From positions 1 through 64,000 of the IMG/VR virus record IMGVR_UViG_3300010391_000273: a stretch of 64,000 nucleotides of DNA; one strand, written 5' to 3'. A program made the position numbers and the translations under genes. How positions within the stretch are numbered: the first letter of the stretch is position 1; each line of letters starts with the position of its first letter. Positions 2,190-49,775 of this stretch are shown here, piece after piece. Source of the stretch: a virus. The notes under the pieces are model-generated. The model had not been told where the DNA came from and ran no database searches. It worked only from the letters and a program-made list of their open reading frames with translations.

Positions 2190-2673
2190 TTGTCTCCACT
2201 AAATATTGCCCAATTTTTAAAACGGCTTGTGGTCTTGATTCAAAAAAGCCAATAACTATGTTGCAACCTTGACAAACTATGCCACGAACTTTCCCAGTAG
2301 TATGAGAATGATCTACAGAAGGGTTTTTTATAGGGGAACTATTACATAGTTTACAAGCATTATTTTGTTGGGTAAGGATCTTATTGTAATCTTCAAGAGT
2401 TATTCCATAGTCTCTGCGAAGTTGCCAATCTTTACTTTTATTTGGAAAGCGTTTCCTAAAATCTTTCCAGTACTGAGCAACTTTACTTTTATTTTGTTGG
2501 TATCTAGCTCTACCTTGAGCTAATTGTTTCTCTCTTGTTCTTCCATAACTTTTCTGACTATATCCAGGATGTTTCTTTCTCCACTCAGCTCCATAACAGT
2601 TATGGCATAACCCAAAGGCATAGTGTGGTTTATCTGAATGACAAACAGGCTTACGATTAGAATCTCCATTCAT
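2182..2673 (-). CDS. endonuclease VII-family (homing-type) nuclease
   Basis: YGITLEDY...CKLC...VDHSHTTGKVRGIVCQGCN. Confidence 0.85.
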   Translation of the reverse strand: MNGDSNRKPVCHSDKPHYAFGLCHNCYGAEWRKKHPGYSQKSYGRTREKQLAQGRARYQQNKSKVAQYWKDFRKRFPNKSKDWQLRRDYGITLEDYNKILTQQNNACKLCNSSPIKNPSVDHSHTTGKVRGIVCQGCNIVIGFFESRPQAVLKIGQYLVETNE

Positions 2674-13989: not shown

Positions 13990-14607
13990 CTAAAAAACGA
14001 GAAACATCCGATTACTGGTTGAAGCCAACAGTGGTGCAAACGACGCGATGACCATATCATGATCAGCACCAACTTTTATGATACTCAAACTATAACTTCC
14101 AGCAGGTGTTTGAGCCGCGTTTGAATCAGACATTGAGAGTCCGCCTTGGGTCGTACGAATCGTCGTGTTGGCGCCTGCTGACTGTCCCCCTACGACGTTC
14201 CCTGAGACTGCGACCAGCCAACAGTTATCCAATACCGTTGTGACGGCAACAGTGATAGGGCTCCCCGTTGGAAGCGATCCGGTGTTGCTGGCATCCGGCA
14301 CACCTGTCGTTTTTGCTCCCGTATAGGACGTGGATCCTCCAGACGATGAAGCGGTTCCTCCGGTGAGAGACACCGTATTCGCGCCTGCAGTTGGATTGAC
14401 GAGATAGAACAGATACAACTCATTGGTGTGATTCGGCAAGACGATCTTGTTGATCTGGGTCATCGCCACACTGTTATAAGTGACACCCGTAATCAGATCA
14501 GTTGGGTGCTGACACCCCACGAACAACACCGAGGCTCCGGCGGCACACGTATGCGTCCAGGTTGCCCCACCATTCACGCCAGCTGTTGCATCAAAGGCAA
14601 TGGCCAT
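13990..14607 (-). CDS. tail fibre-associated beta-rich protein
   Basis: Start MAIAFD at 14607 coupled (TAATG) to upstream stop; Thr/Gly/Ala-rich. Confidence 0.6.
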   Translation of the reverse strand: MAIAFDATAGVNGGATWTHTCAAGASVLFVGCQHPTDLITGVTYNSVAMTQINKIVLPNHTNELYLFYLVNPTAGANTVSLTGGTASSSGGSTSYTGAKTTGVPDASNTGSLPTGSPITVAVTTVLDNCWLVAVSGNVVGGQSAGANTTIRTTQGGLSMSDSNAAQTPAGSYSLSIIKVGADHDMVIASFAPLLASTSNRMFLVF

Positions 14608-26199: not shown

Positions 26200-26805
26200 T
26201 TATAGGCTTAACGGAGCCACGCGACCGCTGTCTATTCTATTCTGTGTTCTTATTCGGTGACAATTGGCACAGACTAGCTCGCATTTAGCTATTTCTTCCA
26301 TAATATCTTTTATGGATCTATTTTTGTGCATATTAGCTATTGTATCTTTTTTATCATCACGAACATGGTCAAAGTCCATTACGTATACTGGAAACTGTTG
26401 ACCACAGTCCATACACGGTTTGTTTTTGAAAGAATCGATTATAGACTTCTTTTCAGCTTGTTTTGTTAACTGATAAGATAAACGCTTCTCACGATTATTG
26501 GCTGCATAAATTAGAGCTTTTTCTCGTTGACGATCCACATATTCTGGGTGGGTTGCTCTATATATTCGTTGTCGCTCGGTTTCTTTAGAAGGGTTAGCTA
26601 GTATTCGTTTTCTTGCTGCCACAGCTCTTGCTTGTCTAACTTCAGGTTTAGCTCTACGTCTAGCATCTGCAGCACGCATCAATTCTGGGTGCTTCTTCCG
26701 CCATTCGTAAAGATGTATCCTACGACATGCTTTACATCTTACTTTGTTCTTTCGAGTATAGTCTTTTTCTGGTTTATCTTCATTACAGTATTTACAAATC
26801 GACAT
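26200..26805 (-). CDS. free-standing HNH endonuclease
   Basis: CMDCG...MDFDHV...KCELVCANCHRIRT; N-terminal CxxC pairs. Confidence 0.85.
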   Translation of the reverse strand: MSICKYCNEDKPEKDYTRKNKVRCKACRRIHLYEWRKKHPELMRAADARRRAKPEVRQARAVAARKRILANPSKETERQRIYRATHPEYVDRQREKALIYAANNREKRLSYQLTKQAEKKSIIDSFKNKPCMDCGQQFPVYVMDFDHVRDDKKDTIANMHKNRSIKDIMEEIAKCELVCANCHRIRTQNRIDSGRVAPLSL

Positions 26806-26924: not shown

Positions 26925-28155
26925 TTATGCCGACTCACAAACGGCCAATCTGCTGCGGTTGTTAACTAGAGCTTGCAAAGCGGAGTATATTTTGAAGACA
27001 AATGCATTCTGACTGGGGATTTCGACAGTGTTGCCCTTGTCTCGGAAGTACTGCTTGGAAACTACGATGTTGTAGTTCTTTGGATTCAGGAAGTAGACAG
27101 GTGTTCCACCATATTGTGAGAATACGTATCTGGCTGTCTTGAACGCTAGGACCTTAAAGCCTGCGTTGGCTTCGTCGGTGTCTGTGAAGCGTTGAAGGGT
27201 CTGAAGTCCTGACTCATAGAGGACGTGTGGTGTCACTCCTGAAATCATGAACTTTGGTTGAAGACTGGCTCCTGAACCTTTAGCTGCCTTATTGAAGGCG
27301 GTTGTGAAGGTTGCTTCGATGTCAGATCCGTCTGCAGCGTATGTATCCGCGTAGTTCTTCCACCATGTTTCGACTGAGCTGTCAATGCCACCGACTGTAC
27401 CCGTACCTGCAGTGGAAACTAGGTCGTTGAGGCCGTTGAGTTCGTCGCCACCGGCTGTCGAAGTGACGAAGATGGACTGCTCGATTAGGTCATCGTGCGA
27501 GTTGATGCCATTTTCGAGAAGTTGCTTGACGAGGGCAATCTTCTGATTTTCCTCTGGGTTCTTAGCATCATCGCCCTTAGTCCATACGACGGGGACTGAG
27601 ATCTGGGCGACGTTGTAAGAGGCAGAGGTGCCAATTTCTGTCTTGACTAGCGAAGCTTCGTCCTGGTCAGAGGCTAGGACCGCTGCATCAGGATTTGCAC
27701 GGTAGTCGAGGGGAGCTTCGATTGTTGGTCCGAGTGCGATATGTTGGATAACGCCTTGACGTTCCATCTCACGAAGGGCTGCGTTTTCAGCCCACTGATT
27801 CTTTATTGTTACAAACGATTTTAATCGTTAGGGTTAGTCGTTTCTGTTCCGCCAACCTCCCTAGGTTTAAGTTTCACTAGGGAACAGACTATTGCATTCT
27901 CCATTAGGAGATCCCTTCGTTTAGTCGTTCACGCTGGATTTTTAATCCTTGCGCCTCGTAACCATTTCAGGCGTCCGAGTCGATTAGAGGGGATTTTCTA
28001 AAAAGTCATTACAACTTTTTAGGGCCATGTATGATACCTAGCAGTCTAATCCAGTGGTTGGATCGTTAAGCCGCCTTACGCATTTCCGCAAGGACTGCTG
28101 GGTAGCTCACCTTTTTAAGTTGGGAAGCCGCGATTTGTTCTATAGAAAGGCTCAT
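26925..28155 (-). CDS. major capsid protein, spliced: exon 28155..28069 joined to 27800..26925 (320 aa; 315 aa if 28111..28125 is also removed)
   Basis: GGAG RBS and ATG at 28155; removing 27801..28068 gives in-frame ...EMRKAA|NQWAENAALREMERQG...; HK97-like LNGL...GGID...WW and YFLN motifs. Confidence 0.85.
27801..28068 (-). ncRNA. group I self-splicing intron (268 nt, no ORF) in major capsid gene
   Basis: Exon ends in U, intron ends in G; P2 CUAAAAAGUUG/UGACUUUUUAG, P3 AUCCC/GGGAU, P4 CUCG/CGAG, P6, P7 GACUA/UAGUC, P8 UCUCC/GGAGA, P9 UCCCUAG/CUAGGGA. Confidence 0.92.
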
Positions 28156-28169
28156 AATTTAAATCTCCA

Positions 28170-28403
28170 TTAGTGAATAGTTATTGTTTCAATTGTACTA
28201 TCTGCACTTACGGAGGCAGGGACCGATTTACGAGATACCACATTGGTATTACGAGATAGCAGATATTGTTTGGCTGCTTCCAACAGGTCTATGGAGTCGC
28301 CTAACATGCCAATACCTGTATAACATGTTAAGCAGAGTAGGCCACGAACTACTCCAGAAACGTGGCAATGATCAACGTGACTCACTTTTTGTCCACTCCC
28401 CAA
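28170..28403 (-). pseudogene. endonuclease VII C-terminal fragment
   Basis: HVDHCHVSGVVRGLLCLTC...GDSIDLLEAAKQYL; no N-terminal half; catalytic Asn replaced by Tyr. Confidence 0.7.
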
Positions 28404-29038
28404 TAATAGGAAAGGGCTTGTTGAGCGAACACTTTTTGAAGACTTTTATATACTTTGAAACCAAAATATGTGAGGCCTGCGACGAGGATGACTACGACTC
28501 CTAAACCTATCATGAAGAGGTTAGACCAATTCACAACGGTGCCAAATTTCTCGGCTGTGGTGACTGTCGTCATGAGTTGTCGGGCGATGGCGCCAAGGAT
28601 GATTAGAGCGACTGGGCCTGCAACACCGAAAATGGCTACGTTTTGACGGGTGATGTGTGTTTCAGCCCGATCAAGACGACCATTCTGGGTGATCATGTGG
28701 GCTTCGACGGCTTTAACGGTGGTGTTTATAGAATTTAGTACGATGTCTTGGCCTTTAGTATGGGTTTGAATAAGATCACGAACCATTGATACCGTGGTAC
28801 TCGATTCCATTTGCTGAGCGGTTCGAATTTCTCGAATGTCATCTTGGAGACGTGGGAATTCACTTAAGGCTTTACTTGCTGTATCGGATACTATCTTCGC
28901 TGATTGAGCAGCGGCAGTGTTTAGGGTTTTTACGGCATCGGCAGCAGCAGTAGTGATTGTCGTTGTAGCTATTGCAGAAGCAGCTGCAATTATAGACGCC
29001 GCGTCTTTTTGTCTAGTAGAAGATCTTTCTAAAGCCAT
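28382..29038 (-). CDS. coiled-coil membrane protein (holin/lysis accessory-like)
   Basis: Helical region followed by two hydrophobic segments. Confidence 0.55.
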   Translation of the reverse strand: MALERSSTRQKDAASIIAAASAIATTTITTAAADAVKTLNTAAAQSAKIVSDTASKALSEFPRLQDDIREIRTAQQMESSTTVSMVRDLIQTHTKGQDIVLNSINTTVKAVEAHMITQNGRLDRAETHITRQNVAIFGVAGPVALIILGAIARQLMTTVTTAEKFGTVVNWSNLFMIGLGVVVILVAGLTYFGFKVYKSLQKVFAQQALSYYWGVDKK

Positions 29039-30983: not shown

Positions 30984-31150
30984 TTTGTGGCTCCTGGTGA
31001 CGCTTGAGGGCGTCTATTTACGATTTGGTTTCGTGGGTTTATCTAAAGGTAAGGCATATTACATTAATCCTTGACAATTGCCTCATTATATGTTAATCTT
31101 ATAACTCATTTAGTTTTAATAGATTAACCTATATTGACAAGGAAAAGCTC

Positions 31151-31630
31151 ATGAGAAAAAAGTATTACAAGACAGAAAATCGGAAAGCGTTTTTTGCAGA
31201 GATGGTTGAAAAATTTGGTGATCAATGTATGATTTGTCATCAACATATTCGACACCTTCTTATAGACCATGATCATCAGACAGGTATCATGCGTGGACTT
31301 CTTTGTGTTCAACATAATTTTGGTCTTGGTAATTTTCAAGATAGTCCAGAACTATTAAGAAAAGCTGCTAATTATTTAGAAACGATGAATATTGCCGAGC
31401 TGACCAACGGTGCAAAGAATAATGAGATGTCAGGACCAGTTAGAAAACCTTATCTAACAAATCAAGATATTGATGACATTCTTTTAGATAAACACTACAA
31501 ATCAGATCGCCAACGTGCTAAAGAGCTAACAGTTAGATATAATATTAGTTTTAGTGCTGCCCAATCTAGAGTCTCAAGACGGGGAATGAGGCAATGCACT
31601 GCATCCTATGTAATTGCATCACCCCTTTAG
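31151..31630 (+). CDS. endonuclease VII-family nuclease, antisense to late arm
   Basis: CMIC...IDHDHQTGIMRGLLCVQHNFGLGNFQDSPELLRKAANYL; TTGACA at 31071. Confidence 0.85.
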   Translation: MRKKYYKTENRKAFFAEMVEKFGDQCMICHQHIRHLLIDHDHQTGIMRGLLCVQHNFGLGNFQDSPELLRKAANYLETMNIAELTNGAKNNEMSGPVRKPYLTNQDIDDILLDKHYKSDRQRAKELTVRYNISFSAAQSRVSRRGMRQCTASYVIASPL

Positions 31631-49438: not shown

Positions 49439-49519
49439 TTTTAAATACTCCCAATAAGTTACAAACTTATAGTCTACTAGATAATAAAGAAGATTGTCAA
49501 CAAGATTAAACTGTTGAAG

Positions 49520-49775
49520 ATCAACAAACCGCCATTCGGACGGGGCTGCAATGCCCCCGACTCCACCATAACAAATTTAATGAGTATGGGGTCGACTTAG
49601 TTTCGACGGGTAGCTTAGTAGTTGATTGGAGGTTTAGTCGTAAGACCCACGAAACGGGTCAACCGATAGTCAACGACTATCAAATGGCAGCGTAAGCTGC
49701 AATCGACTTATAAGGTCTAATCACCTTTAGGTCCGGGTTTTGTGGGTTGTCCTCGGAACAGAATCAACCCTCTTT
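49520..49775 (+). ncRNA. ssrA: circularly permuted (two-piece) tmRNA; tag (A)NDYQMAA
   Basis: 3' acceptor half CGACUCC-A-CCA (49558-49568) precedes 5' half GGGGUCG (49588-49594) with G3:U70; pseudoknot UCGU/ACGA + GACCC/GGGUC; AUAGUC then tag 49672-49695. Confidence 0.88.

What the first reader, a model, noticed from the sequence alone, without database searches (positions are those of the whole stretch)
27801..28155. Group I intron with two tandem guide sequences, one fitting excision of a separate upstream 15-nt micro-intron
Seen (minus strand): the capsid gene reads exon A ...AUC GCG GCU | UCCCAACUUAAAAAG (28125-28111, encodes SQLKK) | exon B GUG AGC UAC CCA GCA GUC...AAG GCG GCU | 268-nt intron | exon C AAU CAG UGG. 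Exon A and exon B end in the identical GCGGCU, and the 15-mer and the intron both end in AAAG (omega-G-like). The intron 5' leader holds two guide sets. Set 1: CCACUGGAUU (28057-28048) pairs with the exon C start, followed by G-ACUGC, an imperfect P1. Set 2: GACUGCUAGGUAUCAU (28046-28031) gives ~15 bp with the start of exon B, followed by CAU-G-GCC (GGCC at 28026-28023). That GGCC sits at the canonical IGS position next to P2; it makes a U.G-terminated P1 with GGCU, and its adjacent CAU pairs with exon B's GUG but not with exon C's AAU. The 15-mer is also complementary to both P2 strands (CAACUU/AAGUUG; UUAAAAAG/CUUUUUAG). Established: group I ribozymes can perform trans excision-splicing in vitro using P1/P10/omega-G. 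Inference: one ribozyme core processes two introns (its own and a coreless micro-intron), or can skip or back-splice the 42-nt exon B, giving alternative capsid N-termini.
Basis: partly seen in the sequence, partly recalled or inferred. Interest (0 to 1): 0.93.

Follow-up and report, generated by a model that had tools for sequence, protein, structure and literature searches.

The report
Capsid intron with spare splice guide
A self-splicing intron in a sediment phage's capsid gene carries two sets of exon-matching guide sequences; the second fits the removal of a separate 15-base insert upstream that no related phage has and that carries a stop codon in two assemblies, so one ribozyme may be splicing out two pieces, which has not been shown in nature.

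Summary
On the minus strand the major capsid gene reads exon A (28155-28126), a 15-nt insert (28125-28111), exon B (28110-28069), a 268-nt group I intron (28068-27801) and exon C (27800-26925).

Rfam does not recognise the intron. Its P3-P8 core aligns with 16 other phage introns: 98.6% of cells pair, against 38-52% when the partners are slid.

About 190 homologous N-termini were examined, and all join IAA directly to VSYPAV.

Leader nt 21-48 binds the ligated A|B junction better than any other site in the mature mRNA (-26.4 kcal/mol, z -4.7). Leader nt 9-30 does the same for the B|C junction (-22.4, z -5.0).

New here: two Logan assemblies of this phage read 28116 as U on the coding strand, which gives an in-frame UAA inside the insert.

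Also new: same-lineage introns (IGS GGCC) sit at several sites in related capsid genes, at least three of them directly after GGCU.

Best reading, at about 0.45: the 15-mer is the stump of a second intron copy, excised with the help of the downstream ribozyme. The main rival is a fossil guide plus an unspliced scar. No RNA data exist, so splicing itself is untested.

The parts
28126..28155 (-). Exon A of the major capsid gene (MSLSIEQIAA). It ends GCGGCU; the SD GGAG lies upstream.
   Evidence: The peptide is identical to the N-terminus of homologue P0005. GGCU at this position occurs in only 2 of 30 intronless alleles.
28111..28125 (-). The 15-nt insert UCCCAACUUAAAAAG (SQLKK if translated), the candidate coreless micro-intron or intron stump. 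It starts with U after GGCU and ends AAAG, as the intron does.
   Evidence: It is absent from all of about 190 homologous N-termini. It shares CAACUUA with the 3' tail of the L009 intron.
28116..28116 (-). Polymorphic base: A in the window and U in two Logan assemblies. The U turns AAA into an in-frame UAA inside the insert.
   Evidence: table 3. X1 (a 98,591-nt contig, depth 23.8) and X2 (depth 5.4) both show it, and it is the only difference in 651 nt.
28069..28110 (-). Exon B (VSYPAVLAEMRKAA, 42 nt). It ends GCGGCU at the true 5' splice site.
   Evidence: Homologues read ...MRKAA|NQW....
27801..28068 (-). Group I intron of 268 nt with no ORF. It starts with an in-frame UAA and ends with G (omega-G, 27801).
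   Evidence: It is the only family member in the 98.6-kb genome.
28048..28057 (-). Guide set 1: CCACUGGAUU (intron nt 12-21). It is the P10 guide for the start of exon C (AAUCAGUGG) and is followed by A-GACUGC, which pairs imperfectly with GCGGCU.
   Evidence: B|C junction -22.4 kcal/mol, z -5.0. A diverged copy, CCUGUUGGAUU, is kept in the X4 intron.
28027..28046 (-). Guide set 2: GACUGCUAGGUAUCAUACAU (intron nt 23-42), antisense to the start of exon B and contiguous with the guide GGCC.
   Evidence: A|B junction -26.4 kcal/mol, z -4.7. The helix is predicted in the MFE fold of the 5' region. This segment is missing from the X4 leader.
28023..28026 (-). GGCC, the internal guide sequence in the family's canonical place directly 5' of P2. 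It pairs with GGCU, giving a U.G wobble at the cleavage site, at the ends of both exon A and exon B.
   Evidence: By homology: L060 pairs GGGCU| with GGCCC 3 nt before P2, L009 has GACG 2 nt before P2, and L034 has GGGCAC 2 nt before P2. It is kept in X3 and X4.
27998..28022 (-). P2 hairpin CUAAAAAGU-UGUAAUG-ACUUUUUAG.
27887..27993 (-). Catalytic core: P3 (27993-27988 / 27917-27912), P4 (27979-27976 / 27958-27955), P5, P6/P6a, P7 GACUA/UAGUC (27926-27922 / 27891-27887) and P8 (27910-27907 / 27902-27899).
   Evidence: 98.6% of cells paired, 15 of 26 pairs with changes on both sides, and slid controls at 38-52%.
26925..27800 (-). Exon C of the capsid gene (NQWAENAAL..., 291 aa).
   Evidence: Mx8/Mx9-type major capsid proteins; 1274 homologues.
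28170..28403 (-). Truncated Endonuclease VII-type homing-endonuclease remnant directly upstream of the capsid gene.
   Evidence: PF02945, profile positions 37-81 only; 50% identity to the C-terminal third of the endonuclease encoded inside the L060 intron.
26200..26805 (-). Free-standing HNH endonuclease gene directly downstream of the capsid gene.
   Evidence: PF01844, below the Pfam cut-off.

Best explanation
The capsid gene holds one complete group I intron at KAA|NQW. Upstream, at IAA|VSY, it holds the 15-nt stump of a second copy of the same intron lineage.

This lineage uses the guide GGCC and settles directly after GGCU. It occupies several sites in this gene in different phages: after GGCU at the two seen whole (KAA|, WA|), likely at LA|, after other exon ends at two more.

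The stump keeps what a group I ribozyme needs in a substrate: a U that forms a wobble pair with the guide at its 5' edge, and a terminal ...AAAG at its 3' edge. It has no core of its own.

The downstream ribozyme supplies the core. GGCC pairs with the GGCU of exon A (P1). The adjacent leader CAU...GACUGC pairs with the start of exon B (P10). The terminal G of the stump enters the G-binding site, exons A and B are joined, and the 15 nt leave. This could happen in cis in the precursor, or through the excised intron acting on the mRNA as engineered trans-excision-splicing ribozymes do.

The same RNA removes itself using the CCACUGGAUU guide for exon C. The mature mRNA then encodes the family-standard N-terminus MSLSIEQIAAVSYPAVLAEMRKAANQW.

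Shown: the anatomy, the absence of the insert from homologues, the group I core, the two junction-specific guides, the nonsense variant, and the multi-site lineage. Inferred: the origin as a stump, and the excision itself.
For: (1) All homologous N-termini lack the insert.

(2) Logan assemblies from two samples of one study (one perhaps the window's source) carry an in-frame UAA inside the insert. It is the only difference in 651 nt. A decoded insert in an essential, N-terminally conserved capsid gene should not tolerate this.

(3) Exon A is intact, has an SD, and is identical to the N-terminus of homologue P0005.

(4) The leader next to the canonical guide binds the ligated A|B junction at -26.4 kcal/mol (z -4.7). 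This is the best site in the whole mRNA, and P1 and P10 are contiguous. The guide is antisense to VSYPAV-coding DNA in general.

(5) GGCC holds the guide position established in L060, L009 and L034.

(6) GGCU at the end of exon A is rare among intronless alleles (2 of 30).

(7) The insert starts with U and ends AAAG, like the intron. It shares CAACUUA with the L009 intron tail.

(8) Same-lineage introns lie at WA| (L060) and KAA| (window, X3, P0013) after GGCU, at LA| (X4; its 5' exon end was not seen), at MALTV| (L009, after CGUU) and at WT| (L021, after GGACU).

(9) Engineered group I ribozymes excise internal segments that end in G by using P1 and P10 (PMC2532722; PMC4094466).
Against: There is no RNA evidence of any kind. 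No natural precedent is known to me.

The insert is in frame and, in the window's allele, free of stops, as a tolerated coding insertion would be.

The exon-B guide has 3 mismatches in 18 and cannot pair perfectly with any VSYPAV-coding sequence, because its complement reads UGA and CUA. It is missing from the X4 intron and from L009 and L060.

The X4 leader also keeps a diverged guide for a junction it no longer flanks, which shows that fossil guides persist in this lineage.

The stable exon-B/leader helix and the shared GACUGCU stretch would have to be remodelled between the two splicing events.

The 7-mer match to the L009 tail is weak evidence (about 3% by chance, in A-rich sequence).

Allele frequencies at 28116 are known only from assembled contigs.
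Confidence: 0.45

Rival explanations
1. Fossil guide plus an unspliced scar. The intron lineage once sat at IAA|VSY and moved, or was copied, to KAA|NQW. The exon-B guide and the 15 nt are leftovers and the RNA keeps the 15 nt. The window allele makes a capsid protein with five extra residues. The UAA allele ends a 13-codon leader ORF, and ribosomes restart at the GUG three bases later (UAA AAG GUG), giving a protein that lacks the first ten residues.
For: The insert is 15 nt, in frame, and open in the window. X4 keeps a diverged anti-NQW guide although its 3' splice site lies 18 nt upstream, so fossil guides do persist. The exon-B guide is imperfect. The spacing UAA AAG GUG suits termination-reinitiation (sequence; established knowledge of translational coupling).
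Against: The first 24 residues are conserved down to about 50% identity, so both a 5-residue insertion and a 10-residue truncation would have to be tolerated in the same population. No SD lies at a usable distance from the GUG. A major capsid protein needs high output. Exon A remains perfect.
Confidence: 0.3
2. The exon-B guide is an exon tether or folding and timing device for the main intron only. It would hold the cleaved 5' exon, which the 4-bp P1 binds weakly, or couple splicing to translation. On this reading the 15-mer is an unrelated recent insertion.
For: P1 is only 4-6 weak pairs (-5.6 to -6.6 kcal/mol). The exon-B/leader helix closes a multiloop in the MFE fold. X3 carries the same leader in a different phage background. 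Engineered trans-splicing ribozymes gain from extended antisense guides (PMC6155759).
Against: It does not explain why the helix starts at the first base after the insert and runs straight into the guide. It does not explain why exon A ends in the rare GGCU, nor the UAA allele. In a gene without the insert the helix would tie up GGCC with the wrong GGCU.
Confidence: 0.12
3. Alternative products are the point. Using the GGCU of exon A as the 5' splice site with the main 3' splice site would skip exon B, giving A-C in frame and 14 residues shorter. Using the end of exon B with the 3' edge of the 15-mer would circularise exon B. Either would give regulated capsid isoforms.
For: Both GGCU sites match GGCC equally. 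The A-C junction is in frame and binds the leader at -21.2 kcal/mol (z -3.2).
Against: VSYPAVLAEMRKAA is nearly invariant in all homologues. No homologue lacks it.
Confidence: 0.05
4. The UAA allele is an assembly artefact or belongs to defective genomes, and the 15-mer is simply translated.
For: Only contigs were seen, not reads. The site borders a T/A homopolymer run.
Against: The same base appears in two samples, at depth 23.8 and 5.4, in assemblies independent of the window record.
Confidence: 0.08

Closest known systems
Phage group I introns (T4 td/nrdB/sunY, Twort orf142, SPO1; reviewed in PMC3984707)
   Same: A small self-splicing-type intron in an essential phage gene. A stop codon lies right after the 5' splice site, there is a U.G wobble at the 5' splice site and a terminal G, and homing-endonuclease genes lie nearby.
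   Different: The P1 loop is 40 nt and carries two junction-specific guide sets. There is no intron ORF. Rfam RF00028 does not score it. A second, coreless insert sits 42 nt upstream.
Trans-excision-splicing ribozymes (Pneumocystis, Tetrahymena, Candida constructs; PMC2532722) and 'spliceozymes' (PMC4094466)
   Same: A group I core excises an internal segment that follows a U and ends in G. It uses P1 with the upstream flank and P10 with the downstream flank.
   Different: Those are laboratory constructs that act in trans. Here the substrate and ribozyme lie in one natural transcript, and the ribozyme must also remove itself.
Ectopic spread of group I introns by reverse splicing (PMC1299323)
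   Same: One lineage with a short guide (GGCC) is found after matching GGCU tetramers at several sites.
   Different: Here the sites lie within about 100 nt of one phage protein-coding gene, not in rDNA. The route (RNA or DNA) is not shown.
Fragmented or helper-dependent organellar introns (trans-spliced group I introns with micro-exons; degenerate group II/III introns) - from my own knowledge
   Same: A piece that cannot splice by itself depends on catalytic RNA encoded elsewhere.
   Different: Those cases split one intron into complementary halves. Here a complete intron would serve a second, coreless one.
Intron plus free-standing homing endonuclease ('collaborative homing' in T7-like phages) - from my own knowledge
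   Same: An ORF-less intron is flanked by free-standing HNH and EndoVII-type endonuclease genes.
   Different: No cleavage-site data exist. One flanking endonuclease gene is truncated.

Membership tests
Group I intron | Conserved core: P3/P7 pseudoknot, P4-P6 and P8 in the canonical order | tested here: met
   on alignment A3 of 17 introns. 98.6% of cells are paired against 38-52% in slid controls. 15 of 26 pairs change on both sides, and all pairs of P3 and P8 covary.
Group I intron | 5' splice site after a U that forms a wobble pair with G of an internal guide sequence (P1) | tested here: met
   The exon ends GGCU. GGCC lies at the family's guide position next to P2. An alternative P1 with GACUGC is also possible, so the choice of guide is not settled.
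Group I intron | Terminal G (omega-G) at the 3' splice site, and P10 with the 3' exon | tested here: met
   The intron ends ...AAAG at 27801. The boundaries are fixed uniquely by the homologues' KAA-NQW. The P10 guide CCACUGGAUU is present.
Group I intron | Match to the curated covariance model (Rfam RF00028) | tested here: not met
   There is no hit at the gathering threshold or at E<=10. The model misses this phage lineage. Membership rests on the structure test.
Group I intron | Guanosine-dependent self-splicing | not testable with these tools
   This needs in vitro transcription with GTP and Mg.
Excision-splicing substrate (TES-like micro-intron) | U at the end of the upstream flank, paired to the guide | tested here: met
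   GGCU of exon A pairs with GGCC at -5.3 kcal/mol.
Excision-splicing substrate (TES-like micro-intron) | G as the last base of the excised segment | tested here: met
   G28111. The context AAAG is the same as at the intron's own 3' end.
Excision-splicing substrate (TES-like micro-intron) | P10 between the downstream flank and a guide directly 5' of the P1 guide | tested here: met
   GUG...GCAGUC of exon B pairs with GACUGC...CAU, contiguous with GGCC.
Excision-splicing substrate (TES-like micro-intron) | The segment is absent from the mature RNA | not testable with these tools
   No RNA run holds this phage. Indirect evidence only: the UAA allele and the homologues.
Mobile intron with its own homing endonuclease | An endonuclease ORF inside the intron | tested here: not met
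   There is no ORF of 30 aa or more on the intron strand within 27801-28068. The relatives L060 and L021 do carry one.

The most novel reading that the evidence does not exclude
This would be a natural, helper-dependent 'micro-intron'. A 15-nt coreless remnant of a group I intron would be spliced out of a phage capsid mRNA by the complete sister intron 42 nt downstream. That intron carries a dedicated second guide set (P1 GGCC plus a P10 for exon B) besides the guide it uses for itself. It would be the first natural counterpart of trans-excision-splicing, and a non-autonomous form of a group I intron.
Probability: 0.45. Interest if true: 0.9.

Novelty: new variant of a known kind. Interest (0 to 1): 0.78.

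Why it matters
Group I introns are thought to excise only themselves. Excision of a foreign internal segment is known only from engineered ribozymes.

A natural case would show that intron cores can be shared. A decayed copy could then survive as a tiny non-autonomous intron, much as MITEs depend on full transposons. Short in-frame 'insertions' next to introns in phage genes could be RNA-level features that annotation misreads, here even as a nonsense mutation in the capsid gene.

Independently of that, the locus gives an unusually clean picture of one intron lineage hopping among GGCU sites within about 100 nt of a single gene. This bears on the long-debated role of reverse splicing in intron spread.

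The proposal is directly testable with one in vitro transcript.

Tried and rejected
**Searches that gave nothing**
- Rfam at the gathering threshold and at E<=10 found no group I hit.
The DNA of the intron-bearing homologues known only as proteins (the 295-, 279- and 307-aa forms) could therefore not be fetched.
- The one metagenome-contig scan (core 19-mer) returned only two unrelated introns, L052 and L053.
- The capsid search in genome contigs found no relative. A leader/P2 pattern there gave 35 chance matches, none with an intron core.
- IMG/VR scans for the window-type and X4-type leaders found nothing.
- No RNA holder is listed for this stretch, so expression and splicing could not be examined.

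**Computations that were uninformative**
- RNAduplex on the full-length exon and intron was meaningless because of giant loops.
- A first script timed out.
- The global ungapped complementarity scan was not significant on its own.
- The AlphaFold model of a full-length homologue was too poor (mean pLDDT 45) to say whether the N-terminus would tolerate an insertion or truncation.

**Ideas considered and set aside**
- Ribosomal bypassing of the gene-60 type: no matching take-off and landing codons flank the 15 nt so as to restore VSYPAV.
- An SD-driven internal start: GGUGA has no start codon at a usable distance.
- A single large intron from 28125 to 27801: it would delete 14 nearly invariant residues.
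- Stop-codon reassignment: the ORFs of the window read normally under table 11.
- Repair by the phage's RNA ligases: no cleavage motif is known.

Full report
**What is there**

The window is part of a complete 98.6-kb virus record from a sediment metagenome. On the minus strand the major capsid gene is broken up as follows:
- exon A, 28155-28126, MSLSIEQIAA;
- a 15-nt insert, 28125-28111, UCCCAACUUAAAAAG;
- exon B, 28110-28069, VSYPAVLAEMRKAA;
- a 268-nt intervening sequence, 28068-27801;
- exon C, 27800-26925, NQWAENAAL....

The protein is a distant relative of the Mx8/Mx9-type major capsid proteins. It has more than 1200 homologues in metagenomes.

**The intron is real**

Rfam finds nothing, even at E<=10. 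However, the core aligns with an intron of Desulfovibrio phage SRB7757 and with 22 IMG/VR phage contigs that share GCGTGAACGACTAAANGA.

I wrote a P3-P4-P5-P6-P7-P8 structure with the P3/P7 pseudoknot onto a 17-sequence alignment. On that alignment 98.6% of cells pair, against 38-52% when the partners are slid by 1-3 columns. Fifteen of 26 pairs change on both sides, and every pair of P3 and P8 covaries.

The boundaries are fixed uniquely by the homologues' ...MRKAA|NQW.... They give a U before the 5' splice site and a G as the last intron base. The intron has no ORF. It is the only member of its family in this genome.

**The insert is unique to this phage**

Homologues at 75-89% identity read MSLSIEQIAA|VSYPAVLAEMRKAA|NQW. 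So do 45 of the 48 IMG/VR loci, down to about 50% identity (the two sets share many contigs). The other three (L009, L021, L060) are interrupted elsewhere by introns. Twelve short N-terminal ORFs read the same way. None has anything between IAA and VSY.

**New evidence 1: a stop codon inside the insert**

Four runs were laid on 27650-28300. The 98,591-nt Logan contig of run X1, probably the source sample, and a contig of a second sample, X2, are identical to the window except at 28116. There the coding strand has U instead of A. This turns UCC CAA CUU AAA AAG into UCC CAA CUU UAA AAG.

A random SNP has about a 2% chance of falling in these 15 nt, and 3 of the 45 possible changes make a stop. 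The N-terminal 24 residues of this essential gene are conserved across the whole family. A nonsense allele that reaches consensus in two assemblies therefore argues that the insert is not decoded as part of the capsid protein.

If the insert is a micro-intron, a stop just inside it would also keep ribosomes off the unspliced RNA. The UAA at the start of the main intron would do the same. This last point is inference.

**New evidence 2: one lineage, many sites**

Related capsid genes carry introns of the same lineage, recognisable by the shared tail ...GACUAACCC...GUAACAA...AG, at several positions:
- MALTV|EQ in L009;
- LA|EMRK in soil run X4, whose intron is about 90% identical to the window's and is followed directly by GAAAUGAGGAAAGCCGCAAACCAGUGG. 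This matches ten homologues whose ORFs start at MRK;
- KAA|NQW in the window, in X3 and in P0013;
- NNWA|ENAAL in L060, with an EndoVII-type endonuclease in L6;
- WT|(K)GD in L021, with an endonuclease ORF.

In L060 the 5' exon ends GGGCU and the guide GGCCC lies 3 nt before P2, with a 9-nt P1 loop. In L009 and L034 the guide is also 0-2 nt from P2. By homology, the window's GGCC (28026-28023), which abuts P2, is the canonical guide.

The window and L060 introns sit directly after GGCU (KAA|, WA|); X4's LA| site would fit but its 5' exon was not seen, and L009 and L021 follow CGUU and GGACU. Among 30 intronless alleles, GGCU occurs before VSY in only 2 and before NQW in none. The window has it at both places. 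This pattern fits spread to short guide-matching sites, as proposed for reverse splicing (PMC1299323). The route itself is not shown here.

**The two guide sets**

- Leader nt 9-30 (CCACUGGAUU-A-GACUGC...) binds the ligated B|C junction at -22.4 kcal/mol (z -5.0; 0 of 2000 shuffles as good).
- Leader nt 21-48 (GACUGCUAGGUAUCAUACAU-GGCC) binds the ligated A|B junction, without the insert, at -26.4 kcal/mol (z -4.7; 1 of 2000).

Sliding along the 948-nt mature mRNA, each guide's best site is exactly its own junction. In the optimal A|B duplex, exon GGCU.GUG pairs contiguously with CAU.GGCC, which is the canonical P1/P10 geometry. The guide pairs 12-16 of 18 positions with the VSYPAV-coding DNA of other phages and 15 of 18 with the window's own. 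The exon-B/leader helix is part of the MFE fold of the 5' region.

The two sets share GACUGCU, so they cannot act at the same time. Which P1 the main intron uses is open. The candidates are GGCC (-5.6 kcal/mol, 40-nt loop) and GACUGC (-6.6 kcal/mol, but without a clean U.G wobble).

**How I think it works (inference)**

A copy of this intron once sat at IAA|VSY as well. Two 268-nt direct repeats 42 nt apart would be unstable, because recombination between them deletes exon B. One copy lost its body and left U...CAACUUAAAAAG. The stump starts and ends like the intron and shares CAACUUA with the L009 tail (about 3% by chance).

The stump is viable because the sister ribozyme still carries the P1 and P10 guides for that junction. 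It excises the stump either in cis or, after its own release, in the manner of trans-excision-splicing ribozymes. Those need precisely a U, a terminal G, P1 and P10 (PMC2532722; PMC4094466). Both alleles at 28116 would then give the standard capsid protein.

**Why I am not more confident**

- There is no RNA evidence, because no RNA run is listed for this stretch.
- The insert is in frame and open in the window allele.
- The exon-B guide is imperfect. It is missing from X4, whose leader reads UGGAUU-CGUAU-AUGGCC where the window has about 14 more bases, and from L009 and L060.
- X4 keeps a diverged copy of the anti-NQW guide (CCUGUUGGAUU) although its 3' splice site lies 18 nt upstream. Guides can therefore survive as fossils.
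- The UAA allele could be rescued by restart at the GUG three bases after the stop.
- I could not see whether the X3 phage, whose intron leader is identical over 28052-28023, has the insert.
- An unchecked note of this scan (e1-6062317) says the genome encodes a release-factor-like protein with GGS in place of GGQ. I did not examine whether it bears on stop-codon reading.

**Verdict**

The interpretation has passed its first test and gained an independent line of support. It competes with a fossil-plus-scar history that only RNA or peptide data can exclude.

If true, it is a new variant of group I intron biology: a non-autonomous micro-intron served by a neighbouring core. If false, the locus still documents site-hopping of one intron lineage within a single phage gene.

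Noticed in passing
window 28170-28403 (-), 31136-31393 (+), 2200-2424 (-): The window has three Endonuclease VII-type homing-endonuclease-like ORFs. The one directly upstream of the capsid gene matches only the C-terminal third of the endonuclease encoded in the L060 intron (50% identity). It overlaps the preceding ORF 28382-29038, so it looks truncated.
   Followed up: partly
window 26200-26805 (-): A free-standing HNH endonuclease gene (201 aa, PF01844 just below cut-off) lies directly downstream of the capsid gene. With the ORF-less intron this resembles intron plus free-standing endonuclease arrangements.
   Followed up: no
L021:1592-2500; L060:about 1328-2001; L009:about 2203-2444: Related capsid genes in IMG/VR carry same-lineage group I introns at three other sites (WT|GD, NNWA|ENAAL, MALTV|EQ). 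Two of them contain endonuclease ORFs. The first ~100 codons of this capsid family, the N-terminal ~30 above all, are an intron hotspot.
   Followed up: partly
L021:1586-1600 and 2494-2505: With U|...G| boundaries, the L021 intron would join WT directly to GD, dropping the K of the family's WTKGD. Its P1 appears to place U-A rather than U.G at the cleavage site. The boundaries are unresolved.
   Followed up: no
window 49463-49773 (+): Rfam finds a circularly permuted (alpha-type) tmRNA in this phage genome (69 and 55 bits, both above gathering).
   Followed up: no
L052:15-33 and 2291-2309; L053:11762-11780 and 14035-14055: Two JGI contigs each carry two copies of the intron-core 19-22-mer about 2.28 kb apart on the same strand. 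This suggests two related introns, or a repeat, in one gene region.
   Followed up: no
L075-L124: The motif CAGAAAYGACTAACCC, downstream of P9 in the window's intron, occurs in 50 IMG/VR contigs. Only L093, which is the same contig as L009, lies in a capsid homologue. It may be a conserved peripheral element of a large phage intron lineage that Rfam does not cover.
   Followed up: partly
L031:5026-5800: A family intron lies just upstream of a region with weak (29%) similarity to this capsid protein. It may be an intron in a distantly related capsid gene.
   Followed up: no
window 28062-28044 (-), intron nt 7-25: The start of the intron forms a small hairpin, GAUCCA-ACCAC-UGGAUU. It partly hides the exon-C guide, and its 5' arm mimics the start of exon C.
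   Followed up: no
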